DNA from: a virus
Taxonomy: Duplodnaviria; Heunggongvirae; Uroviricota; Caudoviricetes
Strand: one strand, 5' to 3'
DNA length: 10,277 nt
Virus record (IMG/VR): IMGVR_UViG_2671180454_000011
Shown here: positions 1 through 10,277 of the stretch, piece by piece
Position numbering within the stretch: position 1 is the first letter of the stretch
Layout: each line of letters begins with the position of its first letter
The notes under the pieces: generated by a model
What the model was told of the DNA's origin: nothing
What the model saw: only the letters and a program-made list of their open reading frames with translations
Database searches by the model: none
Translations under genes and position numbers: made by a program

Positions 1-2
1 TT

Positions 3-320
3 CATCGTGCAGTTAAATACCTTCCACCAGCAGGCCATAACGGGCTTACTATTCGTTCACCGTTTCCTAGTGCAGTCGTTGTTTTTAAAAAAGAACCACG
101 TAAGCACGAAATTACACAGACGGTTTGCTGTGGTGACACGCTATTACCGTTAACCATCATTAACAGAGGAGGCTTGAGAGGAAGACCCACCATTTACCCA
201 CCTGAGACGCTCGACAGCTTCATAAAACTATACAGGCAAGGAAAACCCATTAAGTGCATTGCAGATGCTCTCAGAATGCCTCTGAGCACGTCATACAGGA
301 TTGCTCAAAGGTTGAGCTAA
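3..320 (+). CDS. 3' part of a gene entering from upstream of the window; product ends in a resolvase/invertase-type HTH DNA-binding motif
   Basis: Manual translation of + frame 3 gives 105 sense codons from the window edge to TAA 318-320 in AT-rich DNA (…TVCCGDTLLPLTIINRGGLRGRPTIYPPETLDSFIKLYRQGKPIKCIADALRMPLSTSYRIAQRLS*). Absent from the ORF track because it has no in-window start codon. The GRP-(linker)-…G.P…IA..L….STSYRI pattern matches the C-terminal DNA-binding domain of serine recombinases (Hin/Gin/Tn3 resolvase) from memory; residues before GRP do not obviously match a resolvase catalytic domain. Confidence 0.5.
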   Translation, partial: HRAVKYLPPAGHNGLTIRSPFPSAVVVFKKEPRKHEITQTVCCGDTLLPLTIINRGGLRGRPTIYPPETLDSFIKLYRQGKPIKCIADALRMPLSTSYRIAQRLS

Positions 321-411
321 AATTCTCATAAATATGGTCATTTACAAGATAGGTGATTCAGATATTAAGAAGTATCCCTGTGAACAATAAATGACCAATC
401 AGTAATTATTC

Positions 412-442
412 TGTGAAATAATTGTTGCAATTTATAATCACA
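412..442. promoter_or_regulatory. 31-bp imperfect palindrome TGTGAAATAATTGTTGCAATTTATAATCACA (perfect core AATTG-TTG-CAATT); candidate operator or recombination site; contains a perfect TATAAT hexamer at 433-438
   Basis: Read directly: TGTGA … TCACA outer arms and a perfect 13-bp central palindrome, inside the 380-bp non-coding gap between the HTH gene and the rep-like gene. Confidence 0.3.
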
Positions 443-519
443 TCTGTTATAGTTTTTATATGGGGTGATAAAAGAACTCAGAACATTAAGAGGTTACAAC
501 GTTGGGAGGCGTCAGGGTA

Positions 520-547
520 TTGACAGATTTTCACGGCCTCTTATTCA
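520..547 (+). promoter_or_regulatory. Putative sigma70-type promoter TTGACA-N16-TATTCA oriented toward the rep-like gene
   Basis: Perfect -35 hexamer TTGACA at 520-525, -10-like TATTCA at 542-547; about 150 bp upstream of ATG 703. The -10 is imperfect. Confidence 0.25.
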
Positions 548-702
548 ATCAAGGCTTTTCCTTTTGCTGTTAATACTCGCGTAATCGCTCAGGCTTCTGA
601 GTTCCTTTATCAGTCCATCTTCTAATTAATTCACTCCCTCTGGGGTTGGTCACTATACGTGGTCAGCCCTTTCTTTGTTTTATTTTTAAAAAGGAAAATA
701 TA

Positions 703-1656
703 ATGGAAAAATTCCACATGTTTGATGACCGTATTTATCAGATGACTAATGGCGTTAAAGCTGCCGACCGTATTATTTACACTGTCATGTTGAATGAACA
801 AAAGTTTTATCACGATAAGGGGCAATATTATACCCCTTCATATGCTCATCTTGGTCAGTATGCTGGAATCACAAGAACATCCGTGATTGCATGTATGAAA
901 CAACTTGAGGCACATGGTTTAATCAAGAAAACTAACGTTGCAAGCAATCAGTGTGTTATTAAAGTTTATTCACTTGATGAAGTACCGGAGGTTTTAACAG
1001 AGCTTACAGCTAAGGAAGCCAGAAAGGCAAAGCTGGAGTCTAAAGTTACTCAGTCAGTCAAGAAAGATGACCCACTGAGTCAAAATTCTTTACCCACTGA
1101 GTCAAAATTTTTTACTCAGTCAGTCAAAATCTTTGACACGTATAATAACAGTAATAACAAGAAAGAACTTATTAATAACAATAAAGAAGATGACTTTGAA
1201 GAAGAATATTTTAAGAAGGGAGCTTCGCTCTGTGATTCACATGAATGTGATTCTCTTGGTATTGAAGAGGCTATTAAAGAGACTGTTAAAACATCTGACT
1301 TAGATGACCTTGATAGTGAAGCTGCTAAAGAGGTCGTTAAAAAGGAAGATAAAATCTCTGATGTGATTGCTAGTAGTGACCATAAAAACACACAGTGCCC
1401 CGCCACTGATGATGAATTACCGGATGTTGACCTTGATGATGAAGAAGACCCTGAAAAGGAATTGAAACGTGAACAGCGTAAAGCAGAAATTAAAGAAAGA
1501 TTCAGAAATGCGAAGCTAAAGAACAAGGTTAGTGACCTCGATGACTTTGATGATAGTGACGATGATTTTACTTTTACACCAAAAAAGAAAACTCACACCG
1601 AGCCAAAGAAAGAAAAAGTTAAAGTCAGACGTGTTTATGGTGGAGGAATGTTTTAA
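703..1656 (+). CDS. Replication-initiator-like protein: N-terminal winged-helix/HTH-like domain (…YAHLGQYAGITRTSVIACMKQLEAHGLIKK…) followed by ~200 aa of acidic low-complexity sequence; iterons lie inside the gene
   Basis: ORF-track ORF 646..1656 (TTG start); ATG at 703 preferred because AAAGGAAAA lies 6-14 nt upstream. The N-terminal ~100 aa resemble wHTH DNA-binding domains of phage/plasmid initiators (lambda O-like or replisome-organizer-like) from memory; the rest is D/E/K-rich (DLDDLDSE, PDVDLDDEED, SDLDDFDDSDDDF). Functional call is inference from domain look and the internal iterons. Confidence 0.75.
   Translation: MEKFHMFDDRIYQMTNGVKAADRIIYTVMLNEQKFYHDKGQYYTPSYAHLGQYAGITRTSVIACMKQLEAHGLIKKTNVASNQCVIKVYSLDEVPEVLTELTAKEARKAKLESKVTQSVKKDDPLSQNSLPTESKFFTQSVKIFDTYNNSNNKKELINNNKEDDFEEEYFKKGASLCDSHECDSLGIEEAIKETVKTSDLDDLDSEAAKEVVKKEDKISDVIASSDHKNTQCPATDDELPDVDLDDEEDPEKELKREQRKAEIKERFRNAKLKNKVSDLDDFDDSDDDFTFTPKKKTHTEPKKEKVKVRRVYGGGMF
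1046..1133. repeat. Four tandem 22-bp iterons (A-B-B-A): TTACTCAGTCAGTCAAGAAAGA / TGACCCACTGAGTCAAAATTCT / TTACCCACTGAGTCAAAATTTT / TTACTCAGTCAGTCAAAATCTT
   Basis: Hexamer AGTCAA occurs at 1056, 1078, 1100, 1122 (exact 22-bp spacing, counted by hand). Units 1 and 4 are near-identical, as are units 2 and 3. Located within the rep-like ORF. Confidence 0.75.
1134..1200. other. AT-rich tract directly 3' of the iterons with three copies of TAATAACA (1143, 1152, 1173); candidate DNA-unwinding element of an intragenic origin
   Basis: Read directly; position relative to the iterons mirrors the ori-lambda layout (iterons followed by AT-rich region inside gene O). Confidence 0.4.
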
Positions 1657-1952
1657 TGAAAACTTATAATGGCGAGAGAAAATACCGTGACTATTTACTC
1701 AGACGTTACAGCATTTCTCGTGAAGGTTACTTGATGAAAGATACTCACGGGGAAGTTTACCGGATTCGACCGAAGAAAGAAGGGAGGGATTATTATTTCG
1801 TCGATGATGTGACAGATTTAAAGATTGACGCTTTGAAGTTTGCGGTGCTGTATCATTACGATTTATGGGATTCAGTCCACCAGCTACGATTAAAAGACGG
1901 TGACCCCGGTAATCTGAGGGCCACCAATATTATCAAGGGAAAGTGCCGGTAA
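1656..1952 (+). CDS. Hypothetical 98-aa protein, translationally coupled to the rep-like gene (TAATG overlap); faint resemblance to AP2/NUMOD4-HNH-like small phage proteins
   Basis: ORF track; ATG 1656 overlaps the rep TAA stop; GGTGGAGGA SD about 10 nt upstream. The motifs YSISREGYL and KDGDPGNLRATN loosely recall NUMOD4 and HNH segments, but the catalytic His placement does not fit, so this is not a confident call. Confidence 0.65.
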   Translation: MKTYNGERKYRDYLLRRYSISREGYLMKDTHGEVYRIRPKKEGRDYYFVDDVTDLKIDALKFAVLYHYDLWDSVHQLRLKDGDPGNLRATNIIKGKCR

Positions 1953-1961
1953 GGCCACCAG

Positions 1962-2138
1962 CTATTTATTTACTGAAATCTCTATCTCAACACGAAGAAG
2001 TTTAAGTCGAATTGTAAGCTTTGTCTTTTTTGTAATGACTCGATTCATAACGCAAAACACCAATAGCACAATAAATACCGCAAAGCCCAACGAGCTAAAA
2101 CGATGAGATTCAATAATTGCTGTGAAAAAATCATGCAT
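1962..2138 (-). CDS. Small single-pass membrane protein (58 aa: MHDFFTAIIESHRFSSLGFAVFIVLLVFCVMNRVITKKTKLTIRLKLLRVEIEISVNK)
   Basis: Minus-strand ORF 1962..2168 in the track (GTG start); the first ATG (plus 2136-2138) has AAGGA 7 nt upstream and a TTGTCA-N17-TACTAT promoter further upstream. One hydrophobic helix followed by a basic stretch. Lies convergent to the rep operon, with only 9 bp between the two stop codons. Confidence 0.45.
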   Translation of the reverse strand: MHDFFTAIIESHRFSSLGFAVFIVLLVFCVMNRVITKKTKLTIRLKLLRVEIEISVNK

Positions 2139-2188
2139 TAATTTTCCTTTTGTGAAAGGAAACAGCACCTGTATCAGCCCCTACAACC

Positions 2189-2217
2189 ATAGTATCATGT
2201 AAATGAGGTACTGACAA
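2189..2217 (-). promoter_or_regulatory. Putative promoter for the minus-strand small membrane-protein gene (TTGTCA-N17-TACTAT on the minus strand)
   Basis: Reverse complement of plus 2212-2217 (TGACAA) gives the -35 TTGTCA; reverse complement of plus 2189-2194 (ATAGTA) gives the -10 TACTAT; spacer is 17 nt. Confidence 0.3.
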
Positions 2218-2239
2218 TATGTTAAATAGATGTTAAGAT
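2211..2239 (+). promoter_or_regulatory. Putative promoter for the small-gene operon starting at 2276 (CTGACA-N17-TAAGAT); its -35 overlaps the -35 of the divergent minus-strand promoter
   Basis: Read directly: -35 at 2211-2216, -10 at 2234-2239, 17-nt spacer; ATG 2276 is ~30 nt downstream of the predicted start site. Confidence 0.3.
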
Positions 2240-2275
2240 TGTAGTATGAGTAAGAGATTTAAGGAGATTTTTACA

Positions 2276-2566
2276 ATGACTCACACAGTTACGCGCCTTT
2301 TGCCAGAGGCATTTGAACGACTGGCAGCAATCAAAGCCAAATATCCCGATATGAAGCACACAGCGCTTGTTGGGGAGATTTTAAAAGAGTCGGTAAACCT
2401 TAGCCCTTTCGATAACGTTAAGGGCGTCGCAGAGGGTTCTAAGGCCATCAGAATCACAACGGGCCAACTGGAACTACTCAAAGCACAGTCCGCAGTAGCA
2501 GGTTGCTCAATGATTCAGGTGTTAAGCGCTAAGGTCCATCAACTGGCGGATAGATTGGAGGTTTAA
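2276..2566 (+). CDS. Small DNA-binding protein with two consecutive ribbon-helix-helix-like segments (96 aa)
   Basis: ORF track 2246..2566; ATG 2276 preferred (AAGGAG SD 9 nt upstream). Segment 1 TVTRLLPEAFERLAAIKAKYPDMKHTALVGEILKESV and segment 2 IRITTGQLELLKAQSAVAGCSMIQVLSAKVHQLADRL each fit the RHH pattern of a beta-strand, helix, G-x-S/T-type turn and helix (Arc/CopG/MetJ-like), judged from memory. Confidence 0.7.
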   Translation: MTHTVTRLLPEAFERLAAIKAKYPDMKHTALVGEILKESVNLSPFDNVKGVAEGSKAIRITTGQLELLKAQSAVAGCSMIQVLSAKVHQLADRLEV

Positions 2567-2787
2567 TGTGTTATAGGTTCCAATATTCCACACTTGGCCG
2601 CCACCTAATCAGACAGAATTTAGCAGATGCTGAATTTGAAGATGTGACCCTCAAAGCAAACAAACGATTAAAACCCTCTCAAATCCACCAGCTTAAACAC
2701 GAATTAAAGCCACTGGTAATACTCGACTATAACGACCCTGAACAGCTTGAGCAGGGAATTAAGCTTATTTCTGAATGGGGTGCTTGA
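2566..2787 (+). CDS. Hypothetical 73-aa protein, translationally coupled (TAATG) to the RHH-like gene
   Basis: ORF track; ATG 2566 overlaps the upstream TAA stop; GGAGG SD at 2556-2560. Confidence 0.65.
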   Translation: MCYRFQYSTLGRHLIRQNLADAEFEDVTLKANKRLKPSQIHQLKHELKPLVILDYNDPEQLEQGIKLISEWGA

Positions 2788-3002
2788 TGAAAACTATCAC
2801 AGTACAACTTCAGACTAATAAAGCATTTCGTTATTTTGAAAACTTGCTTGAGTTATACGAAGGATGGGGAAGTATCCACGGCAAAGATGATATCTATCTT
2901 CACTTGTCAGCCCCTAACTATTCTCTGAAGACTCCGGTTAAGCAAAGCTGGTTAAAAGACTACGGTCACCAGATGGGGCTATTAGTCTCAGACTTGAGCT
3001 AA
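2787..3002 (+). CDS. Hypothetical 71-aa protein, start overlapping the upstream stop (TGATG); alternative start at ATG 2775
   Basis: ORF track 2775..3002; ATG 2787 overlaps the upstream TGA by 1 nt and has a G-rich SD-like stretch upstream; ATG 2775 lacks one. Confidence 0.6.
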   Translation: MKTITVQLQTNKAFRYFENLLELYEGWGSIHGKDDIYLHLSAPNYSLKTPVKQSWLKDYGHQMGLLVSDLS

Positions 3003-3044
3003 AAACAGCAAAACATATCTCTCAGGCTTTACCAGACGCACCAG

Positions 3045-3119
3045 AAACGTTTTTAAGCCCCTAATCAGGGTAACTTAGGGAATCGCCTTAAGTGGTCTAA
3101 AAAAGGGGTTAAAACGTCT
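3045..3119. promoter_or_regulatory. Nested inverted repeats in the 146-bp intergenic gap: AAACGTTTTTAAGCCCC (3045-3061) vs GGGGTTAAAACGT (3105-3117), enclosing hairpin CCCTAA-N10-TTAGGG (3058-3080)
   Basis: Read directly; AAACGTTT (3045-3052) is itself a perfect 8-bp palindrome. No classical GC stem plus U-run terminator is evident. Confidence 0.3.
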
Positions 3120-3148
3120 TAGAATGCGATACAGGAAGGATTTTAAAA

Positions 3149-3454
3149 ATGAATTACCCAATGCAAATTATGGTTGACCAAGAAACCATGAATTGGTTGA
3201 TTGACCTGAACAGGTCGGGCTTTAATATCTATTTCATGCATTGTTTTGAAGCGTCAACGTATATTGACAAGCATATAATCAACGAAATTAAACTTGGTGA
3301 CTATGTTCACAAGCTGGAAGTAACAGACCCATACAATAAGCGCTTTATCATTGAAGAGTGCAATCGACTTGATTTAAGCCCTGAGCAATTATTGAAGCTG
3401 AATGTATTCTTGACCTATCAGAATGAATTAAACCCTTACAGCGAGGTGATGTAA
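3149..3454 (+). CDS. Hypothetical 101-aa protein
   Basis: ORF track; ATG 3149 preceded by AGGAAGG. Confidence 0.7.
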   Translation: MNYPMQIMVDQETMNWLIDLNRSGFNIYFMHCFEASTYIDKHIINEIKLGDYVHKLEVTDPYNKRFIIEECNRLDLSPEQLLKLNVFLTYQNELNPYSEVM

Positions 3455-3531
3455 TGACACTCGTTATTCTCTGGATGACTTTAGGGTTATTTGTTGGTTG
3501 CTGGGTAGGTAATACGGTAAATAAGAATTGA
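3454..3531 (+). CDS. 25-aa hydrophobic micro-ORF (MTLVILWMTLGLFVGCWVGNTVNKN), translationally coupled (TAATG) to the 101-aa gene
   Basis: Not in the ORF track (too short). ATG 3454-3456 overlaps the upstream TAA stop; GAGGTG SD 5-10 nt upstream; product is one predicted TM helix. Manual translation to TGA 3529-3531. Confidence 0.4.
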   Translation: MTLVILWMTLGLFVGCWVGNTVNKN

Positions 3532-3650
3532 TGTTACCAATCTGTTAAAAAGCTGTTGACAAATAACCTTAAGCATGAGATGATGGTAATAGGGAAGAGC
3601 AACTCTTCCTGAATTAAACTATTAATCATTCTACATCAATGATAGTTATT

Positions 3651-3704
3651 CTGAAAGGTGCAATGCTTTTCGCTACATGACCTTTCAGGTTAGTCTGAGA
3701 GGTC
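3651..3704 (+). promoter_or_regulatory. Mutually exclusive stem-loops: CTGAAAGGT (3651-3659) or CTGAGAGGTC (3695-3704) can each pair with GACCTTTCAG (3679-3688); candidate RNA switch/attenuator-like element
   Basis: Read directly: a 9-bp perfect stem with 20-nt loop versus a 10-bp stem (1 mismatch) with 6-nt loop, sharing the central arm. Lies in a 398-bp non-coding region downstream of a TTGACA hexamer (3556-3561) and of hairpin GGAAGAG-caa-CTCTTCC (3593-3609). Confidence 0.35.
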
Positions 3705-3733
3705 ATCTCGAAAAGTACTCTTGTTCATTCGTT

Positions 3734-3755
3734 TGAATCCTTTTTGAATCCTTTA
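3734..3755. repeat. Tandem direct repeat TGAATCCTTTT / TGAATCCTTTA
   Basis: Read directly: two adjacent 11-bp units, 10 of 11 identical. Confidence 0.5.
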
Positions 3756-3784
3756 GATGTTTTAATTTCTTCACCTTATGAATG

Positions 3785-3810
3785 GCCCTTTATAAGAAAT
3801 TATCTAGGGC
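3785..3810. promoter_or_regulatory. Imperfect palindrome GCCCT-TTATAAGAAATTATCT-AGGGC about 120 bp upstream of the 236-aa gene; candidate operator
   Basis: Read directly: 5-bp perfect outer arms with partial inner symmetry (TATAA/TTAT). Confidence 0.25.
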
Positions 3811-3929
3811 TATTCAGCTTTTAAAAAGCATACTTGGCAAACCGCCTTTTAAGTCTCTTCTAAGTTTAGATAGGCTGTCAGGTGTGCTTTTTAAAAACTG
3901 AAACACTTCCGCTTAGAAGAGGAAAAGCA

Positions 3930-4640
3930 ATGACAAATGATATTTACATTAATGGCAAAGTGATTGATAGCTTCAGTGACTGGTCGCCACAGACTGAACA
4001 TCCAGCTATCACTATTCAGCGTAAAGAGCATGACAAGCGTATTGAGCTTGAGCAATCGCTAAAGATGTCACCAAAAACAACCATCTTTGTGTCTCCTGAG
4101 CCTCAAGAGATGCCTGATATTTGCAAGAGTGAAGCATTACTTGAGCTTGAAAAGAAATATTACCAACTGCTGAAAGAACAGCGCCTTAGATTAGATGACG
4201 CTTACAGCAAAGTTACCTTGATGCAATCAGCTATTGAGCCGTCAGAATTTGAGATTCAGGATGAATTGTCACAGAAACCATTTGTCTATTACCAATACGA
4301 AGATAATGATGGTTTTGGTACTTTTCAAGAAAACGTCGCAGCCGTGATTAGTAGTCTTCCTGCTGGACATCGAATTGTGAAGATGGTTAAGGCATCAAGA
4401 GGTGCTGGTCAGTTTATTTACATGACTAATAAGAGCGATGAAGAACTCGCTGAAATTGCTAGACAGAACATCTTGGCATCACGTAACAAGCAACTTGATA
4501 ATGTTAAGTTGTATCTCTCAAGAGAGCTTCAGGCTATGAAAGAGCTTGTGAAAGAATATGAAGATGCTAAGAAGATTGCTATGCAGGCTGATATTGAGCA
4601 GCTTACGAAGATTTCTAGCAAATATGCAAAGGCTATTTAA
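3930..4640 (+). CDS. Hypothetical 236-aa protein with a helical, charged (coiled-coil-like) C-terminal third
   Basis: ORF track 3882..4640 (GTG start); ATG 3930 preferred (AGAAGAGGA SD 7 nt upstream). No family recognised. Confidence 0.75.
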   Translation: MTNDIYINGKVIDSFSDWSPQTEHPAITIQRKEHDKRIELEQSLKMSPKTTIFVSPEPQEMPDICKSEALLELEKKYYQLLKEQRLRLDDAYSKVTLMQSAIEPSEFEIQDELSQKPFVYYQYEDNDGFGTFQENVAAVISSLPAGHRIVKMVKASRGAGQFIYMTNKSDEELAEIARQNILASRNKQLDNVKLYLSRELQAMKELVKEYEDAKKIAMQADIEQLTKISSKYAKAI

Positions 4641-4664
4641 TTAATAATTAAAAGGTGGTGGTGA

Positions 4665-4871
4665 ATGATTGATTTAACAGAACGCTATGAGCTTATTAAA
4701 GCAATTAGTGAACGATTGAAAGAACAACCCAACAAACCAAAACGAATCAAATCATTCACCTCCTCTAAGCAAAAGAATAGAATCAGGAAAATAGCTAAGT
4801 GGTGTCTTGATAAATTACCAAGTGATTGTCAGATTGTTGGTGAAGATGGTAATTATTATCTGGTTAGGTAA
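4665..4871 (+). CDS. Hypothetical 68-aa basic protein
   Basis: ORF track; AGGTGG SD 8 nt upstream of ATG 4665. Confidence 0.6.
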   Translation: MIDLTERYELIKAISERLKEQPNKPKRIKSFTSSKQKNRIRKIAKWCLDKLPSDCQIVGEDGNYYLVR

Positions 4872-4969
4872 CAAGATTGGTTGGGTGAAAATCTACGGGA
4901 GAGATTATCGAGTGATATCGGTAGTCTTTCCCTTTTTCGTATATGAACACTTAAAGAGGTGAAACATGA

Positions 4970-7150
4970 ATGAGCAAATTCACAGTTGATAGTTTTATCG
5001 TTGAACTTAGTTTCAGTGAAAACGTTATTAAGGGCTTGCAAAGAGTTGAAAAGGCAGCTTTGCAGTCAGCACAAAGAATTGAACGCAATTTGAATAGAGC
5101 GTTTAAGGTCGATACCAAGCAACTTGACAGCAATCTGACAAGTTCTTTAGGGCAGCTTGAAAGGAAGTTTAATAAGACCTTTGACAAGATTGAGCAGAGA
5201 GCAAGAAGCACAAAAGCATTTCAGTTTGCCACCAGATTTAATGACACTGTTAATCCTCCAAAACAATCAAGGCAACCACGAATTAGCGGAAACAGAGCAA
5301 TCACAGCAGCGCATAGCGTGAATATGTCTAAGCTTGGTGATATTAATCCGCTGATGGCTAAAATGTTTAAAGCACAGTATTACAGCTTAAGCGGTAAGGC
5401 TGGTAATATTGGAAGTGAAAAGTTTAACGCTGAACTTGCAAAATTAAATCAATCTCTTCGTGAAACGTTGAATAAACTCAGGTCACAGACAAAGACCGCC
5501 AGCATTAACAATACAAGCGACGCATTTAATAATCTTGCAAGCAATGCGATTAAATTATCTGGTGCATTTTACTCTGTGATGGGTGCTCTTAACGCTTACA
5601 AGGCCATTATGAATGCAGGTCTTAAACGAGATTCCGCACAGAGAGCCGCTAAGTTTGTACTTGGTGATAAAGCATCTGAAGCTGAGGTATTTATTCGAAA
5701 TTTAGCAGACAAGACAGGTCTTAATATCTCTGAAGGGCTATCAAGCTACGCTAAGTTTGCAGCAGGTGCTCAGGGTTCTATGTCACAGGAACAGACACAG
5801 GAGCTATTTGGTAATGCAACGGCTATGAGTCGCTTAATGGGGCTTTCTAACGATGAGCTAAACGGCATTTTGAGAGCATTTGAGCAGATGGCGAGCAAGG
5901 GCAAGATTCAGGCTGAGGAATTACGTGGGCAGTTAGGTGACCGTATGGCTGGTGCATTTAAGCTATTCGCTGAAGCATTGGGTATGACTGCTACAGAGCT
6001 TGATGCAGCCATGAAAAACGGGAAGGTACTTTCCGCTGATACTCTCCCTAAAGTCGCTAAACAGATGGGCTTGATGATTGATAAAGCGGGTGGCTGGGCT
6101 GAAGTCACTAAGAGCACTCAGACAGCTTTAGGTAAGTTAGCAAACAATTGGGATGATACGATGGTGAAAATCTTCTCAGGTTCACAGGATGAGCTAAACG
6201 GCTTCTTATCCAGCCTGAGTAACCTGCTTAGTGAAATGGGGATGAGTTCTTCTATCGCTGGTGATGCTATCGGTGGACTTATCGACATGCTTAAAGCTGG
6301 TGTAGATGATATTCGCGTATTCAATAACACCATTGAAGGCTGGATTTTACAGACTAAGAAGTTCTATTACAGCCTTGATGACACTAAACGAAAACTACTT
6401 GATGAAGTCGGTGATGGTTTTATCAACTTCGTCAAAGGTCTTGCTATAGCGTTATCTGCAAAGACGCTATTCAGTGCTACTACAGGGGTTATGAACCTGA
6501 CAAGAGCAATCACAACGTTAGGTACAAGAGCTAATCAGGTGGCTGGTCAGGTAGCTACTGGTAAAGGTGGTGGAAAACTGAAAGGTGTAGCTGGTGGTGT
6601 AGGTAGTGCTCTTGCAATTGGTTATGCTGATGACGGTTATGAAACAGCGTTAGCATTAGCTTCAATGATTCCACAAATCAGAGGCGTCACTCTTGGTTTA
6701 TATGCATTGAAGAAAGCACTGGATTTTATGAATCAGGAAGTAGTCAAAAACGCTAATATGCATCCGTCTGGGGTAGGTGTGGGTAGTGACTTTAATCCCG
6801 TGTATTCTGGTGACCCTAATAAACCGAATATGATTAACGAAGGATGGAGTAGAATTTTTAGTTCAATGGGTGAATTGTTTAACAATGCCACAATGAATAT
6901 TGCAAGATTCAATCATCCAGAGTTAAACAACATTAAGCAAGATTCAGCATTAACGAGTGCAGATATTCAGGGTCTGAGGGATGAAATTAGTGCTTTGAGT
7001 AAGCGTATTCAGGAGCCAGTGAAAGTTTCACTTGGTGGTCAAGTTGTCGTTCGACCAGATGAACCATCTTTCTTTACTTTCAATCAATCAGCTAATGACC
7101 AGTTCACGCAGGATATGCTCTTAAGTTCAAGCTATCCAGAGGAAGAATGA
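4970..7150 (+). CDS. Tail tape-measure-domain protein (726 aa)
   Basis: ORF track; AAGAGGTGA SD upstream of ATG 4970. Contains the conserved tape-measure core …FVLGDKASEAEVFIRNLADKTGL…ASKGKIQAEELRGQLGDRMAGAFKLFAEALGMTATELDAAMKNGKVLSADTLPKVAKQMG… recognised from memory, a coiled-coil-rich N-terminus and a Gly-rich hydrophobic middle (GKGGGKLKGVAGGVGSALAIGYADDGYE). Role as a true tail ruler is uncertain because no other tail or head genes are in the window. Confidence 0.8.
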   Translation: MSKFTVDSFIVELSFSENVIKGLQRVEKAALQSAQRIERNLNRAFKVDTKQLDSNLTSSLGQLERKFNKTFDKIEQRARSTKAFQFATRFNDTVNPPKQSRQPRISGNRAITAAHSVNMSKLGDINPLMAKMFKAQYYSLSGKAGNIGSEKFNAELAKLNQSLRETLNKLRSQTKTASINNTSDAFNNLASNAIKLSGAFYSVMGALNAYKAIMNAGLKRDSAQRAAKFVLGDKASEAEVFIRNLADKTGLNISEGLSSYAKFAAGAQGSMSQEQTQELFGNATAMSRLMGLSNDELNGILRAFEQMASKGKIQAEELRGQLGDRMAGAFKLFAEALGMTATELDAAMKNGKVLSADTLPKVAKQMGLMIDKAGGWAEVTKSTQTALGKLANNWDDTMVKIFSGSQDELNGFLSSLSNLLSEMGMSSSIAGDAIGGLIDMLKAGVDDIRVFNNTIEGWILQTKKFYYSLDDTKRKLLDEVGDGFINFVKGLAIALSAKTLFSATTGVMNLTRAITTLGTRANQVAGQVATGKGGGKLKGVAGGVGSALAIGYADDGYETALALASMIPQIRGVTLGLYALKKALDFMNQEVVKNANMHPSGVGVGSDFNPVYSGDPNKPNMINEGWSRIFSSMGELFNNATMNIARFNHPELNNIKQDSALTSADIQGLRDEISALSKRIQEPVKVSLGGQVVVRPDEPSFFTFNQSANDQFTQDMLLSSSYPEEE

Positions 7151-7157
7151 TTTAACG

Positions 7158-7998
<841 letters not shown>

Positions 7999-8020
7999 TG
8001 TGCAAAATGGCATCTGAATC

Positions 8021-8125
8021 GATCGCAGTTTGGCATTCGAATCGATCATGATTTGGCATCCATCTCCGATCACAGTTTGGCATCACAATCGATCACGATT
8101 TGGCATACTTCCGATCATTGATTGG
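8021..8125. repeat. Five direct repeats of GATC-N4-TTTGGCAT (last copy degenerate) with 22-24 bp spacing at the IS left end; candidate multiple transposase-binding sites
   Basis: GATC at 8021, 8044, 8068, 8091, 8113; TTTGGCAT at 8029, 8052, 8076, 8099; a sixth partial copy AAATGGCAT at 8005. Counted by hand. Multiple subterminal repeats are a known hallmark of IS21-family ends. Confidence 0.7.
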
Positions 8126-8201
8126 AATTCGCCAGTCACTCCGGGAATTAACTCTTTTCACCACAGTCTCCATTGCCGTGTTTAAACCAGTGGAGACGTC
8201 A

Positions 8202-9767
8202 ATGTCCAAAAAGAGAAAATCCAGGAGCACTATGGAAACTTGTTTTAAGATCCTTCAGCTCAAGTTCGATAAGAAGCTGACTAACCGTTGTATCGGACTG
8301 ACGTTACACATCAGCGCCTCAACCGTTTTTGAGGTTCTTGCCCGCTTCAAAGCCTCTTCTCTGTCATGGCCATTACCTGCGGATATATCCCATGACACGC
8401 TGGAGAAACTCATTTTCCCGCCCAAAGACACCTCTGCGTCAGAGCTTGTTATGCCTGACATGCTGTACTTCGATACGGAAATGAGAAAACCTGGCGTGAC
8501 GCGCCAACTGTTGTGGATGGAATACAAGGCACAGGCGGGTGACAAAGCGATGGGATACTCACACTTCTGCCGTTGCTACCGGAAGTGGAAAAAAACGCGA
8601 CGCCTCTCCATGCGACAGGAGCATCGTGCTGGCGAAAAGCTCTTTATCGACTTCTGTGGTCCTACGGTCCCTGTTATTAATCCGGACACCGGAGAGATAC
8701 GCCGCGTGGCAATCTTCGTGGCTGTAATGGGGGCGTCCAACTATACCTATGTTGAAGCGTGCGAAGGTCAGGACATGATGTCATGGTTAAATGCCCACAG
8801 CCGTTGCCTGACCTTCCTGGGCGGCGTACCGAAGCTGCTCATCCCCGATAACCTCAGAAGCGCAGTGAAAAAAGCCGATCGCTATGAGCCTGTCATCAAC
8901 GACAGTTATCAGGCGCTGGCTGAGCACTATGGCACGGTTATTATCCCGGCCCGCCCGCGCAAACCTAAAGATAAACCAAAAGCAGAAAACGGCGTCCTCA
9001 TCGTCGAGCGATGGCTTCTTGCCCGCATCCGTAATGAAACCTTCCACACGCTCAGGGCGCTGAATGCACGCCTTCGGGAGTTGCTGACGGACATGAATAA
9101 CCGACCAATGAAGGGATACGGTAATCAAACCCGCGCAGAACGCTTCCGCATGCTGGATGCACCAGCACTCTCTCCGCTGCCTCTGGAGCCTTATGAATAC
9201 ACGGAATACAAAGCCGTGAAGGTTGGCCCTGACTACCACGTTGAATATGCCCGTCACTGGTACTCCGTTCCACACGAACTGGTCGGTCAGCGTCTGTCAC
9301 TGAAGGTGGGGCAGTCGGTGGTACAGCTCTGGCACAAGGGGCAGTGTGTGGCGCAACATCCGCGCAGCACACATGAATATAAACACACAACCAATCCGCT
9401 TCACATGCCAGAACGCCACCGGCGGCATGGGACATGGACACCGGAACGCCTTATCGAGCAGGGAAACCGTACAGGTCCGTCCACAGGCCGGGTGGTTGAA
9501 TCCATGCTGAAAGCCAAACCCCATCCGGAGCTGGCTTACCGTGCAGTCCTGGGTCTGCTGGCACTTCAGAAAAAATACGGCCCGGAACGGCTGGAAAAGG
9601 CCTGTTACGTTGCCCTGCACTATAACGCCCCGGACAGACGCTTTATCGACAATCTGCTGCGTCATCATCGGGATAACGTTGAGCTTCCGTTATCCCGCCA
9701 GGGCGAACAACATCCGGCATATGCTTCAGAGCATGAAAACCTGCGTGGTCCTGGCTACTACCACTGA
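8202..9767 (+). CDS. istA: IS21-family transposase IstA (N-terminal HTH, DDE catalytic core)
   Basis: ORF track 8100..9767 (TTG start); ATG 8202 preferred (GGAGA SD 5 nt upstream). N-terminal HTH-like …LTNRCIGLTLHISASTVFEVL…, then a DDE-type core ending in the …PRKPKDKPKAENGV… block typical of IS21-family IstA, from memory. Confidence 0.85.
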   Translation: MSKKRKSRSTMETCFKILQLKFDKKLTNRCIGLTLHISASTVFEVLARFKASSLSWPLPADISHDTLEKLIFPPKDTSASELVMPDMLYFDTEMRKPGVTRQLLWMEYKAQAGDKAMGYSHFCRCYRKWKKTRRLSMRQEHRAGEKLFIDFCGPTVPVINPDTGEIRRVAIFVAVMGASNYTYVEACEGQDMMSWLNAHSRCLTFLGGVPKLLIPDNLRSAVKKADRYEPVINDSYQALAEHYGTVIIPARPRKPKDKPKAENGVLIVERWLLARIRNETFHTLRALNARLRELLTDMNNRPMKGYGNQTRAERFRMLDAPALSPLPLEPYEYTEYKAVKVGPDYHVEYARHWYSVPHELVGQRLSLKVGQSVVQLWHKGQCVAQHPRSTHEYKHTTNPLHMPERHRRHGTWTPERLIEQGNRTGPSTGRVVESMLKAKPHPELAYRAVLGLLALQKKYGPERLEKACYVALHYNAPDRRFIDNLLRHHRDNVELPLSRQGEQHPAYASEHENLRGPGYYH

Positions 9768-9783
9768 CAGAAGGAACAACCGT

Positions 9784-10277
9784 ATGAGTGATAATCTGTT
9801 AAACAAACTGACCCAACTGAAACTCCCGGCGATGGCCGGGAGCCTGATACGGCAACGGGAAACGCCTCAGACTTACGACGAACTGTCGTTCGAGGAAAGG
9901 CTGACACTGCTGGTTGATGACGAGCTTCTGAGCAGAGAAAACAGTCGTGTGGCACGGTTGAGAAAAAATGCCTGCCTGAAATATCAGGCAACACCGGAAG
10001 GGCTGCGTTATCCGGCCTCAAGAGGTCTGCGGGCTGAACAGATGAGGGAACTGCTGAACGGCCACTACATAATCCACAGGAAAAACCTACTGATAACCGG
10101 TCCGACAGGATGCGGTAAGAGCTGGATAGCCAATGCGCTGGGCGAACAGGCATGTCGACAGAAATACAGCGTCCGGTACTGTAGAACCGGGCGATTACTG
10201 GAACAGTTGGCTCAGGGACGTGTTGATGGCAGTTGGCTGAAATATCTGAAACAGTTGCAAAAAATACAGGTTCTAAT
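9784..10277 (+). CDS. istB: IS21-family helper ATPase IstB, 5' part (continues beyond window)
   Basis: Manual translation from ATG 9784 (AAGGA SD 9 nt upstream): MSDNLLNKLTQLKLPAMAGS…NLLITGPTGCGKSWIANALGEQA… with a Walker A motif (GPTGCGKS); open to the window end. Not in the ORF track because no stop is reached. Confidence 0.85.
   Translation, partial: MSDNLLNKLTQLKLPAMAGSLIRQRETPQTYDELSFEERLTLLVDDELLSRENSRVARLRKNACLKYQATPEGLRYPASRGLRAEQMRELLNGHYIIHRKNLLITGPTGCGKSWIANALGEQACRQKYSVRYCRTGRLLEQLAQGRVDGSWLKYLKQLQKIQVL

What the first reader, a model, noticed from the sequence alone, without database searches (positions are those of the whole stretch)
703..1656. Initiator-like protein with an unusually long acidic, low-complexity C-terminal region
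After the ~100-aa DNA-binding-like domain, roughly two thirds of the protein is D/E/K-rich repeats (DLDDLDSE, PDVDLDDEEDPEKE, SDLDDFDDSDDDF) ending in a short basic tail (KKEKVKVRRVYGGGMF). This does not resemble the helicase-loader-binding C-terminal domain of lambda O as I recall it. A poly-acidic tract could be a disordered recruitment region or a DNA mimic.
Basis: inference. Interest (0 to 1): 0.45.

Follow-up and report, generated by a model that had tools for sequence, protein, structure and literature searches.

The report
Island initiator with origin inside gene
This gene encodes the replication starter protein of a small mobile island found in E. coli and Shigella chromosomes; its own replication origin lies inside the gene, and its acidic, unstructured tail is a conserved module that most likely recruits replication machinery, though the partner is unknown.

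Summary
The ORF (703-1656, 317 aa) and the quoted acidic motifs are real. The protein has three parts. (1) aa 1-113 is a confidently predicted winged-helix domain. Its closest structures are RepA_N plasmid initiators and RepA of the Vibrio cholerae PLE phage satellite. (3) aa 163-317 is 30% D+E and predicted disordered except for one helix. Three N-domain types pair with three iteron types in 10 of 10 island copies and are swapped as cassettes. The C-terminal part is shared. Its last 87 aa are under purifying selection (dN/dS ~0.3), while aa 163-230 evolves almost neutrally. The gene sits on a ~10 kb island with a large serine recombinase, Felix-O1-like tail genes, and no helicase, primase or loader. 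The best reading is a disordered recruitment module, not a DNA mimic. The partner (host or helper-phage replisome) is not identified. This is a new variant of a known kind.

The parts
425..453 (+). Promoter-like site TTGCAA-17 nt-TATAGT (with TG), start of a ~250-nt leader
   Evidence: Found by the consensus scan. The hexamers and spacing are conserved in all 10 island copies aligned. Activity not tested.
642..670 (+). 12-bp hairpin followed by a T-run (terminator/attenuator-like), directly upstream of the RBS
   Evidence: MFE -17.9 kcal/mol, z -2.3. A second leader allele in other islands has a different 11-bp hairpin plus U-run at the same place (z -3.5).
703..1656 (+). Initiator gene, 317 aa plus stop codon
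   Evidence: Present in 149 of 5,426 complete E. coli genomes, always chromosomal.
703..1041 (+). N-terminal winged-helix DNA-binding domain (aa 1-113), type 'A'
   Evidence: AF2 pLDDT is 84-93 over aa 10-100, with a further helix at 103-117. Foldseek top hits are RepA_N N-domains 4PQL/4PT7/5KBJ and PLE RepA 4RO3 (E 3e-5, target TM 0.55-0.67). Profile against PDB sequences: 4RO3, E 2e-4. PHROG initiator families, E 2e-10. Within-type dN/dS is 0.09.
1046..1133 (+). Four iterons at an exact 22-bp period (cores ACTCAGTCAGTCAA 1048 and 1114; ACCCACTGAGTCAA 1070 and 1092), encoding aa 115-144
   Evidence: The pattern ACYCASTSAGTCAA gives 4 hits against 0.02 expected, and none elsewhere in the window. 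The same four sites occur in other type-A islands and are absent from types B and C.
1134..1193 (+). A+T-rich tract (candidate DNA-unwinding element), encoding aa ~145-162; contains the conserved 15-mer AACAAGAAAGAACTT at 1156-1170
   Evidence: It holds the most A+T-rich 40-mer of the gene (82.5% A+T) and follows the iterons directly in every family member. Gene nt 432-491 are 75-80% A+T against 63% for the whole gene. The 15-mer is shared with distant members L007 and L009. Recombination breakpoints cluster at gene nt ~485-491.
1189..1392 (+). Acidic spacer (aa 163-230), variable in length and allele, predicted disordered
   Evidence: pLDDT below 50. dN/dS ~0.85, with indels and alternative alleles. 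31% D+E.
1393..1653 (+). Conserved C-terminal effector module (aa 231-317): acidic block TDDELPDVDLDDEEDPE (1405-1455), charged helix aa 251-273 (1453-1521), acidic-aromatic motif DLDDFDDSDDDFTF (1534-1578), basic tail PKKK...KVKVRRVYGGGMF (1579-1653)
   Evidence: dN/dS ~0.3. The motifs are invariant or nearly so across 69 sequences and across all alleles, and the charge blocks are conserved. It is retained at 60-80% identity where the N-domain is only 35-50% identical. The only predicted structure is the helix at 251-273.
1656..1952 (+). 98-aa ORF whose ATG overlaps the initiator's stop codon (TAATG); function unknown
   Evidence: Conserved at 84-88% identity in 9 island copies, absent from L005, L007 and L009. 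No hit in any family library. It is a candidate partner, not an obligatory one.

Best explanation
The gene encodes the replication initiator of a ~10 kb integrative island of Escherichia and Shigella. It is built on the same three-part plan as pSK41 Rep (RepA_N plasmids) and lambda O. (1) The N-terminal winged-helix domain (aa 1-113) binds four 22-bp-spaced iterons that lie inside its own gene (1046-1133). (2) The iterons and the adjacent A+T-rich tract (1134-1193) form the origin, and the peptide they encode (aa 114-162) is only a linker whose sequence is dictated by the DNA. (3) The acidic C-terminal half is an intrinsically disordered effector arm. It has a loosely constrained acidic spacer (aa 163-230), then a conserved module (aa 231-317) made of short linear motifs: DDELPD.., a charged helix, FDDSDDDF[TS][FY] and a basic tail. 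Once the N-domain has assembled on the origin, this arm most likely recruits replication proteins that the island does not encode (helicase, primase, polymerase). These could come from the host or, as in Vibrio PLE, from a lytic helper phage. The N-domain and iterons are exchanged together as specificity cassettes, while the effector arm is retained, as would be expected if it serves a common partner. Shown here: gene anatomy, iteron statistics, N-domain/iteron covariation, predicted fold, predicted disorder, selection pattern and island context. Inferred only: DNA binding, origin activity, the recruitment function and the identity of the partner.
For: Iterons: 4 hits against 0.02 expected, at an exact 22-bp period. 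Every family member has its own iteron array at codons ~115-165, followed by the gene's most A+T-rich segment. N-domain type and iteron type covary in 10 of 10 loci, and the iterons occur nowhere else in 10-32 kb of flanking DNA. In the iteron segment synonymous change is suppressed (pS 0.04 against 0.13 in the N-domain) while dN/dS is ~0.84, which indicates constraint on the DNA rather than the protein. Lambda's annotated iterons lie at gene O nt 349-433, against nt 344-431 here. pSK41 Rep (319 aa) has an NTD at 1-120 that binds four Rep boxes centrally within rep, an ori-encoded dispensable linker at 121-199, and an essential genus-specific CTD that binds DnaG (PMC5703833). Fold and profile matches go to RepA_N N-domains and to PLE RepA 4RO3 (the identity of 4RO3 comes from PMC7145576). 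In PLE, the N-domain and ori covary and swap while the C-terminal domain is conserved and is 'hypothesized to facilitate replisome recruitment' (PMC8263062). The same pattern appears here, and breakpoints cluster at the end of the origin. C-terminal region: two AF2 runs (25 and 69 sequences) show no folded domain, with pTM 0.19 for the region alone, and it falls on the disordered side of the charge-hydropathy boundary. The last 87 aa have dN/dS ~0.3 and invariant motifs. Distant members at 25-28% identity also end in acidic-aromatic tails containing DDELP or DDEEDP. The islands carry no helicase, primase or loader gene.
Against: There is no experimental evidence for DNA binding, origin firing or any protein partner. 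By sequence the protein belongs to neither Pfam RepA_N nor Phage_rep_O. The link to RepA_N rests on a predicted structure and one profile hit at E 2e-4. Part of the apparent 'conservation' of the C-terminal region across N-domain types reflects recombination history, not selection alone. The dN/dS estimates come from only 10 mosaic sequences, with pS near saturation in some pairs. Low AF2 confidence with a shallow, closely related alignment does not prove disorder. Many island copies carry a split gene, so the function may be dispensable in the integrated state. The island was not found in the virus collections, so its satellite lifestyle is unproven.
Confidence: 0.6

Rival explanations
1. Autoinhibition or nucleic-acid mimicry. 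The acidic arm folds back onto the basic DNA-binding surface of the N-domain, or onto its own basic helix and tail, and competes with DNA. This would tune iteron binding, prevent non-specific binding or control origin 'handcuffing', rather than recruit other proteins.
For: Alternating acidic and basic blocks are conserved in all alleles (about -10, +6, -8, +7). The acidic tail of T7 gp2.5 competes with ssDNA for the protein's own binding surface (PMC10359462 and the reference to Marintcheva 2008 in it). A disordered polyanion tethered next to a DNA-binding domain is a common autoinhibitory arrangement (general knowledge).
Against: A purely electrostatic role would not need invariant hydrophobic and aromatic positions (L239, P240, F282, F289, [FY]291) or the conserved SD[HQ]K.T.C and [YF][GA]GG motifs. 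In pSK41 and PLE the equivalent C-terminal part is an essential or conserved effector, not a regulator. The two roles are not mutually exclusive.
Confidence: 0.15
2. Interference decoy. The acidic motifs imitate the acidic C-terminal tails of the helper phage's own replication proteins. The main effect is to sequester the phage's T7-like polymerase or primase-helicase, giving phage defence, with island replication as a by-product.
For: Felixounaviruses have a T7-like replication module. In phage garuso only two proteins carry acidic C-tails: the primase/helicase and the conserved gp29-like protein encoded between the primase/helicase and the exonuclease. That tail (TDHKPSNASDDGDDEDLPDPDDEEDEDFDTED) aligns with initiator aa 224-254 better than composition-matched shuffles do (score 56 against 41 +/- 6, p ~0.02). 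Its D-[LI]-P...F-x-T-[ED] features are conserved across Ounavirinae. PLE replication itself lowers ICP1 replication (PMC7145576).
Against: p ~0.02 on a low-complexity segment is weak evidence. The phage protein has no identified function. No helper relationship has been demonstrated. The presence of an origin argues that replication of the island is a selected function.
Confidence: 0.1
3. Mostly non-functional filler. Beyond the linker, the acidic region is a tolerated low-complexity expansion with no specific role. Only tethering, solubility or the extreme C-terminus matters.
For: aa 163-230 has dN/dS ~0.85, indels and interchangeable alleles. pLDDT is below 50. The pSK41 central linker is dispensable.
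Against: aa 231-317 has dN/dS ~0.3, and 21 columns are invariant across 69 sequences down to 53% identity. The charge-block order is preserved in both major alleles. Distant relatives independently keep acidic-aromatic C-termini.
Confidence: 0.1
4. Not a replication protein. It is a winged-helix transcription regulator, and the intragenic repeats are operator sites for autoregulation.
For: PGAP names it only 'helix-turn-helix domain-containing protein'. The weak Pfam hits are to HTH_Crp_2 and MarR-type HTH domains. MarR/SlyA structures appear lower in the fold list.
Against: Four direct repeats at two helical turns, followed immediately by the gene's most A+T-rich tract, is an origin layout and not an operator layout. 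It sits at the same position as in lambda O and pSK41 rep. The best PHROG, fold and profile matches are to initiators. A mobile island with a recombinase and no other replication gene needs an initiator.
Confidence: 0.05

Closest known systems
pSK41 Rep and other RepA_N-family theta-plasmid initiators of Firmicutes (Pfam PF06970 + PF18008)
   Same: The size is almost the same (319 against 317 aa) and so is the three-part plan: an N-terminal winged-helix domain of ~115 aa, four repeats forming the origin in the centre of the rep gene and encoding a linker, and a C-terminal effector part that is lineage-specific (PMC5703833). The predicted N-domain fold is closest to RepA_N structures 4PQL/4PT7/5KBJ. 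Iterons with inverted sub-repeats around an A/T tract are seen in types B and C and in P0145. A natural chimera, pPR9, shows the same N-domain+ori cassette swapping, with a PF13730-type HTH; that Pfam family also gives weak hits in this family.
   Different: No sequence-level match to PF06970 or PF18008. The pSK41 C-domain is a compact five-helix DnaD-like fold that binds DnaG. Here the C-terminal half is acidic and predicted disordered with one helix. The host is a Gram-negative bacterium, and the element is an integrated island with a serine recombinase, not a plasmid.
RepA of the Vibrio cholerae phage satellite PLE (PDB 4RO3, N-domain)
   Same: It is the best sequence-profile hit in the PDB (E 2e-4, aa 22-86) and a top fold hit (E 4.5e-5, target TM 0.66). 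It is encoded on a small chromosomal island that integrates with a large serine recombinase and lacks its own helicase, primase and polymerase. The N-domain and origin covary and are swapped, while the C-terminal part is conserved and has no detectable homologues (PMC7145576, PMC8263062; compare).
   Different: The PLE origin is intergenic, whereas here it lies inside the gene. Dependence on a helper phage is demonstrated for PLE and is only suspected here. I could not retrieve the PLE RepA C-domain to compare composition.
Bacteriophage lambda O protein and ori-lambda (Pfam PF04492)
   Same: Four iterons plus an A+T-rich tract lie inside the initiator gene at almost the same codons (lambda gene nt 349-433; here 344-431). 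The N-terminal half is type-specific and DNA-binding, and the C-terminal half is the protein-recruitment part (the lambdoid pattern is from general knowledge). PHROG 'replication initiation O-like' families match the N-terminal part (E 4e-7 to 1e-5).
   Different: No match to PF04492, and hhalign gives E 0.43. No P- or DnaC-like loader gene follows. The next ORF is an unrelated 98-aa protein that some islands lack. The C-terminal half is unrelated and predicted disordered.
Acidic C-terminal tails of replication proteins (T7 gp2.5 and gp4; E. coli SSB tip DFDDDIPF)
   Same: These are short, disordered acidic stretches with key aromatic residues that dock partners in a replisome (PMC10359462; the SSB tip sequence is from my own knowledge). 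The motif DFDDSDDDFTF resembles them. The Felixounavirus primase/helicase and gp29-like protein carry such tails.
   Different: Here the motifs are internal (28 and 67 residues from the C-terminus), not at a free carboxyl end, and they are attached to an origin-binding protein rather than an SSB or helicase. No binding has been tested.

Membership tests
RepA_N-type initiators (pSK41 Rep) | N-terminal domain with the RepA_N / DnaD-N-like winged-helix fold | tested here: met
   In the AF2 model, aa 10-100 have pLDDT 84-93. Foldseek top hits are 4PQL, 4PT7, 4PTA and 5KBJ (E 3e-5 to 8e-4, probability 1.00, target TM ~0.55). Weak Pfam DnaD_N hit (E 8e-4 on the N-domain alone). This rests on a predicted structure only.
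RepA_N-type initiators (pSK41 Rep) | Sequence match to Pfam RepA_N (PF06970) | tested here: not met
   No PF06970 hit even at E <= 10 on the N-domain alone. The control, pSK41 Rep, hits at 2.5e-32. hhalign of the family profile against pSK41 Rep gives E 0.35.
RepA_N-type initiators (pSK41 Rep) | Origin iterons located centrally within the rep coding sequence, encoding a linker | tested here: met
   Four iterons at gene nt 344-431 followed by an A+T-rich tract. The same layout occurs in all family members examined. The segment shows constraint at the DNA level.
RepA_N-type initiators (pSK41 Rep) | Compact helical C-terminal domain (Bac_RepA_C, PF18008; DnaD-like) | tested here: not met
   No PF18008 hit. 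Two AF2 runs show no folded domain and only one helix.
PLE RepA-like satellite initiators | N-domain homologous to PLE RepA (4RO3) | tested here: met
   Family profile against PDB sequences: 4RO3 is the only hit below 1e-3 (E 2e-4, 67 aligned residues). Foldseek E 4.5e-5, target TM 0.66. The support is modest.
PLE RepA-like satellite initiators | N-domain and origin covary and are exchanged; the C-terminal part is shared | tested here: met
   Covariation in 10 of 10 loci. N- and C-terminal alleles are combined in a mosaic fashion. Most E. coli matches begin at gene nt ~485-491.
PLE RepA-like satellite initiators | Carried on an island with a large serine recombinase and lacking its own replisome genes | tested here: met
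   Intact copies carry a 507-547 aa serine recombinase at the right end and no helicase or primase gene. In this window the recombinase has been lost to an IS21-like insertion.
PLE RepA-like satellite initiators | Replication depends on, and is triggered by, a lytic helper phage | not testable with these tools
   Circumstantial only. The island's tape-measure and baseplate-like genes share 88-93% nucleotide identity with Felixounaviruses. The island was not found in IMG/VR.
Lambda O family (Phage_rep_O) | N-terminal domain matches PF04492 | tested here: not met
   No hit. The lambda O control hits at 5.7e-36. hhalign E 0.43. Only PHROG families labelled 'O-like' match.
Lambda O family (Phage_rep_O) | Origin (four iterons plus A+T-rich region) inside the gene | tested here: met
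   The position agrees to within 5 nt.
Lambda O family (Phage_rep_O) | C-terminal domain paired with a downstream P/DnaC-type helicase loader gene | tested here: not met
   The downstream 98-aa ORF has no family match and is absent from some islands.
DNA-mimic proteins (Ocr, ArdA and similar) | A rigid folded scaffold displaying carboxylates with DNA-like spacing | tested here: not met
   The region is predicted disordered: pTM 0.19, and pLDDT mostly below 60. It is fused to an origin-binding domain. No PADLOC or anti-restriction family search was run.

The most novel reading that the evidence does not exclude
The island is an E. coli/Shigella counterpart of the Vibrio PLE: a satellite of virulent Felix-O1-like phages. 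The conserved acidic motifs of its initiator (DDELPD..DDEEDPE and FDDSDDDFTF) would then imitate the acidic C-terminal tails of the helper's own replication proteins (the gp29-like protein and the primase-helicase). This would dock the phage's T7-like polymerase or helicase onto the island's intragenic origin, replicating the island and at the same time starving the phage.
Probability: 0.2. Interest if true: 0.8.

Novelty: new variant of a known kind. Interest (0 to 1): 0.55.

Why it matters
How RepA_N-type and satellite initiators hand an origin over to a replisome is still an open question (stated in PMC7145576). This protein offers a compact test case in E. coli. It has a ~950-bp self-contained replicon (promoter, leader, initiator and internal origin). 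It comes in three natural specificity cassettes. Its effector arm is reduced to a few short conserved motifs that can be mutated one at a time. If the partner proves to be the replisome of Felix-O1-like phages, which are used in Salmonella and E. coli typing and biocontrol, the island would be the first PLE-like satellite of a virulent coliphage and could be a source of phage resistance. The finding also has a practical side for annotation. 'Low-complexity' stretches in initiator genes can be origins read as protein, and iteron gain or loss (22-23 bp) explains why many copies are annotated as split or partial genes.

Tried and rejected
1. tblastn of the whole protein against 50,697 phage genomes found no match, so it is not a phage gene in that collection.
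2. A search with the C-terminal 118 aa alone returned only fragments of the same family. There is no sign of the module attached to a different kind of protein.
3. Pfam and NCBIfam searches on the C-terminal half at permissive thresholds found nothing.
4. hhalign of the family profile against lambda O and pSK41 Rep was not significant.
5. No DnaA boxes lie near the origin, so nothing suggests DnaA dependence.
6. Rfam found no known RNA in the leader or elsewhere.
7. I could not identify Felixounavirus gp29-like protein as an SSB. PHROG lists it as unknown function, and there is no Pfam or PDB hit with a single sequence or with a 6-member profile. The 'SSB-tail mimicry' idea therefore stays a lead (p ~0.02).
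8. I could not retrieve full-length PLE RepA to compare C-terminal domains.
9. Searches of IMG/VR by profile and by a conserved DNA pattern gave one remote N-domain relative and two unrelated hits.
10. A genome-contig search with the full-length alignments was not possible.
11. Four literature searches found no description of this island or of any satellite of Felix-O1-like phages.
12. I considered and rejected the 336-aa TTG start at 646, because homologues and annotation begin at MEKFH and the hairpin at 642-670 lies inside that extension. I also rejected the antisense ORF at 1116-1526, which is the serine-rich reverse reading of GAT/GAA codons.
Full report
**1. Observation**

The ORF is real. 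It runs from ATG 703 to the TAA stop at 1654-1656 and encodes 317 aa. An AAGGA ribosome-binding site precedes the ATG. The protein is 100% identical over its full length to a Shigella sonnei protein cluster with 193 members.

The acidity is far beyond chance: aa 163-317 is 29.7% D+E, against 11.6% in the other proteins of the window (binomial P ~1e-9), and 48% of its residues are charged.

Two corrections are needed.
- The acidic part is the last ~155 aa, not two thirds of the protein.
- The ~50 residues directly after the DNA-binding domain are not acidic at all (12% D+E).

**2.

Positions 1046-1133 hold four repeats at an exact 22-bp period. The cores are ACTCAGTCAGTCAA at 1048 and 1114, and ACCCACTGAGTCAA at 1070 and 1092. 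The degenerate pattern occurs four times in the window where 0.02 hits are expected, and nowhere else.

The repeats are followed immediately by the most A+T-rich 40-mer of the gene (82.5% A+T). Together they encode aa 115-162, the Q/S/T/N/K-rich 'low-complexity' stretch.

This is the layout of ori-lambda inside gene O. Lambda's annotated iterons are at gene nt 349-433 and those here are at nt 344-431. It is also the layout of RepA_N plasmids. In pSK41 Rep (319 aa), the NTD (1-120) binds four Rep boxes located centrally within rep. Residues 121-199 are an ori-encoded dispensable linker. The CTD (200-319) is essential, genus-specific and binds DnaG (PMC5703833).

**3. The N-terminal domain**

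Sequence evidence:
- Pfam gives only sub-threshold winged-helix and DnaD_N hits.
- PHROG families annotated as replication initiation or O-like match aa ~9-165 (E 2e-10 to 1e-5).

Structure evidence:
- AlphaFold2 with a 25-sequence alignment gives a confident winged-helix domain (pLDDT 84-93 over aa 10-100) and a helix at 103-117.
- Foldseek against the PDB ranks first the N-domains of staphylococcal RepA_N initiators (4PQL, 4PT7, 4PTA and the Rep-DNA complex 5KBJ) and 4RO3 (E 3e-5 to 8e-4, target TM 0.55-0.67).
- 4RO3 is also the only PDB sequence the family profile hits below 1e-3 (E 2e-4).
- 4RO3 is the N-domain of RepA of the Vibrio cholerae phage satellite PLE, which its authors assigned to the RepA_N family by structure (PMC7145576).

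Direct profile comparisons with lambda O and pSK41 Rep are not significant (E 0.43 and 0.35). The protein hits neither PF04492 nor PF06970, whereas both control proteins do. It therefore works like these initiators and shares the predicted fold, but it is not a sequence-level member of either Pfam family.

**4. The family and its modularity**

The family is narrow.
- Only 25 clusters at 50% identity reach E <= 1e-3 among 1.84 billion representatives.
- Full-length relatives at 73, 54 and 46% identity align end to end.
- More distant relatives (25-28% identity) share the N-domain and the layout.

In every member examined, a distinct iteron array sits at codons ~115-165 and the most A+T-rich segment of the gene follows it.

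Among ten island copies there are three N-domain types, and each pairs with its own iteron:

| N-domain type | Starts with | Iteron | Copies |
|---|---|---|---|
| A | MEKFHMF | ACYCASTSAGTCAA | 4 |
| B | MKKETNAF | AACCARAAWTTGGTTA | 3 |
| C | MSKYN | AGTGACAAAATG | 3 |

The pairing holds in 10 of 10 loci, and the iterons occur nowhere else in 10-32 kb of sequence. Types B and C, and the prophage member P0145, show inverted sub-repeats around an A/T tract, as described for RepA_N iterons.

N-domain types are combined in a mosaic fashion with alternative C-terminal alleles. The gene is present in 149 of 5,426 complete E. coli genomes. Only 17 share the whole gene, and most of the others match from gene nt ~485-491 onward, which is the end of the A+T-rich tract.

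This is the behaviour reported for PLE. There the RepA_N domain and the origin covary and are swapped, and the C-terminal domain is conserved and 'hypothesized to facilitate replisome recruitment' (PMC8263062).

**5. The acidic C-terminal half**

Two AlphaFold2 runs were made, one on the whole protein with 25 sequences and one on aa 163-317 alone with 69 sequences. Neither shows a folded domain. pLDDT is mostly below 60, pTM is 0.19 for the region alone, and the only secondary structure is a charged helix at aa 251-273. The region lies on the disordered side of the charge-hydropathy boundary. No Pfam, NCBIfam or PDB relative was found.

The region is not uniform. A Nei-Gojobori analysis of ten copies gave the following:

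| Segment | dN/dS | Reading |
|---|---|---|
| N-domain, within type | ~0.09 | Strong purifying selection |
| Iteron / A+T segment | ~0.84, with pS only 0.04 (0.13 in the N-domain) | Constraint on the DNA, not on the protein |
| aa 163-230 | ~0.85, with indels and alternative alleles | A loosely constrained spacer |
| aa 231-317 | ~0.3 | Purifying selection |

The constrained part carries these conserved elements:
- SD[HQ]K.T.C
- TDDE[LM], followed by an acidic block
- a basic helix
- FDD[SG]DDDF[ST][FY]
- P[KR]KK
- KK..[VI]K.[RK]..[YF][GA]GG

The order of charge blocks (acidic spacer, about -10, +6, -8, +7) is kept in both major alleles. Distant members whose C-termini cannot be aligned still end in acidic-aromatic tails, such as ...DYDDELPAYEADVAF and ...FDDEEDPD...DDSEDW....

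Caveats apply.
- The sample is small and mosaic.
- Some pS values approach saturation.
- Part of the cross-type 'conservation' reflects recombination history.

**6. Context**

The gene lies on a ~10 kb island found at several chromosomal sites (ymdF/wrbA, yciI/tonB, yecE, near lpxL). Its gene order is:
- a small serine recombinase,
- often a DNA adenine methyltransferase,
- the initiator,
- small ORFs of unknown function,
- a 726-aa tape measure protein,
- a Dit-like 'baseplate' protein,
- a large serine recombinase at the right end.

There is no helicase, primase, loader or polymerase gene. The tail genes share 88-93% nucleotide identity with Felixounaviruses. Those phages carry a T7-like replication module: a family-A polymerase, a gp4-like primase/helicase, a 5'-3' exonuclease and a ligase.

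The combination of a large serine recombinase, a RepA_N-like initiator and no replisome genes parallels PLE. I found no paper describing this island, and it is absent from IMG/VR as far as my two scans could tell. Its status as a satellite is therefore an inference.

**7. Mechanism proposed**

The N-domain, probably as a dimer or higher oligomer as in RepA_N proteins, binds the four iterons. The adjacent A+T-rich tract melts. The disordered C-terminal arm, tethered by the ori-encoded linker and the acidic spacer, presents short motifs that capture replication proteins the island lacks.

- Shown: the anatomy, the statistics, the covariation, the predicted fold and disorder, and the selection pattern.
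- Inferred: binding, origin firing and recruitment.
- Unknown: the partner.

One lead points to the helper phage. In Felixounavirus garuso only two proteins have acidic C-tails: the primase/helicase and a conserved 285-aa protein encoded between the primase/helicase and the exonuclease. The tail of that protein (…TDHKPSNASDDGDDEDLPDPDDEEDEDFDTED) aligns with initiator aa 224-254 better than composition-preserving shuffles do (score 56 against 41 +/- 6, p ~0.02). In T7, such tails dock gp2.5 onto the polymerase and helicase (PMC10359462). The phage protein could not be identified as an SSB, and p ~0.02 on a low-complexity segment is weak. I give this reading about 20%.

**8. Rivals**

- Autoinhibition or ssDNA mimicry by the acidic arm is possible and is compatible with recruitment. 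It does not explain the invariant hydrophobic positions.
- A classical folded DNA mimic is not supported.
- 'Filler' fits aa 163-230 but not aa 231-317.
- A purely transcriptional role does not fit the iteron plus A+T layout or the initiator-type matches.

**9. Regulation and fragility (side observations)**

A conserved promoter-like site (425-453) drives a ~250-nt leader. The leader ends in a 12-bp hairpin plus T-run (642-670) directly before the ribosome-binding site. A second leader allele carries a different hairpin plus U-run at the same place. This suggests attenuation or antitermination control, loosely reminiscent of the leader-based control of pSK41 rep.

Iteron units are 22-23 bp, so gaining or losing one unit shifts the reading frame. 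In Escherichia sp. MOD1-EC7003, exactly one 23-bp unit is missing and the gene is split into 127-aa and 197-aa ORFs. At least 45 of the C-terminal-only protein clusters in the database start within the iteron-encoded stretch.

**10. Verdict**

The 'initiator-like, disordered recruitment region' interpretation is the best-supported one, and the DNA-mimic alternative is not supported. The real advance is the recognition of a lambda/pSK41-type intragenic origin and a PLE-like modular replicon on an undescribed enterobacterial island. The disordered acidic effector arm replaces the folded C-domains of the known families. This is a new variant of a known kind, with interest 0.55.

Noticed in passing
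window 1-8000 (whole island); intact copies L001 10577-21741, L002, L013-L017: The window is a ~10 kb integrative island of E. coli and Shigella. It carries small and large serine recombinases, an adenine methyltransferase, the initiator, unknown small ORFs, a 726-aa tape measure protein and a Dit-like baseplate protein. It sits at several different chromosomal sites, and its tail genes are 88-93% identical in DNA to Felixounaviruses. It looks like an undescribed PLE-like satellite or tail-interference island of Felix-O1-like phages. No paper on it was found.
   Followed up: partly
window 425-702: A conserved promoter-like site (425-453) is followed by a ~250-nt leader ending in a terminator-like hairpin plus T-run (642-670), just before the initiator's RBS. 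Other islands carry a second leader allele with a different hairpin and U-run at the same place. This suggests attenuation or antitermination control. There is no Rfam match.
   Followed up: partly
L030 7442-8387; protein clusters P0151-P0257: Iteron units are 22-23 bp, so losing or gaining one unit shifts the frame of the initiator gene. L030 lacks exactly one 23-bp unit and has a split gene (127 aa + 197 aa). At least 45 C-terminal-only database clusters begin inside the iteron-encoded stretch (MSPVLDKL..., MVTC.TEY..., MTPLPVTK...). This could be decay or an on/off switch.
   Followed up: partly
window 7307-10277: This Shigella sonnei copy of the island is degraded. The Dit-like baseplate gene is frameshifted between 7453 and 7461 and cut at ~8000 by an IS21-family element (IstA ORF at 8100-9767). 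The large serine recombinase is missing.
   Followed up: yes
window 8008-8131: A 23-bp tandem repeat (~4 copies) lies at the left end of the IS21-like element. It matches many Shigella and E. coli plasmids at 95-98% identity. These are probably the multiple terminal repeats of the IS.
   Followed up: no
window 1156-1170; L007 10520; L009 10512: An identical 15-mer, AACAAGAAAGAACTT, lies in the A+T-rich part of the origin in this gene and in two relatives whose proteins are only 25-28% identical. It is absent from type B and C origins. It may be a shared unwinding element or a host-factor site.
   Followed up: no
window 1656-1952: A 98-aa ORF has a start codon that overlaps the initiator's stop codon (TAATG). 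It is conserved at 84-88% identity in nine island copies but absent from L005, L007 and L009, and it has no match in any family library. It could be an accessory replication factor.
   Followed up: partly
L018 17003-17860 (Escherichia phage garuso gp29) and homologues L020-L024: A core Ounavirinae protein of unknown function (302 phage records, all annotated as hypothetical) is encoded between the primase/helicase and the exonuclease. It has a conserved acidic C-terminal tail (D-[LI]-P...F-x-T-[ED]). Its position and tail are reminiscent of T7 gp2.5, but no sequence-level identification was possible.
   Followed up: partly
L007 10933-11184: In the distant relative P0140's island, the gene directly after the initiator encodes a T5orf172 nuclease-domain protein. 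That is the domain which, fused to a RepA_N-like domain, forms the ICP1 origin-directed nuclease Odn that attacks PLE origins.
   Followed up: no
window 3930-4637: PGAP annotates this 236-aa ORF as 'transposase' in some genomes and 'hypothetical' in others. It has no Pfam, PHROG or NCBIfam match, so the name looks unsupported.
   Followed up: no
window 3-317: The 3' end of the island's DNA adenine methyltransferase gene encodes a resolvase-type HTH_7 motif (Pfam E 1e-5). This is an unusual C-terminal addition for a methyltransferase.
   Followed up: no
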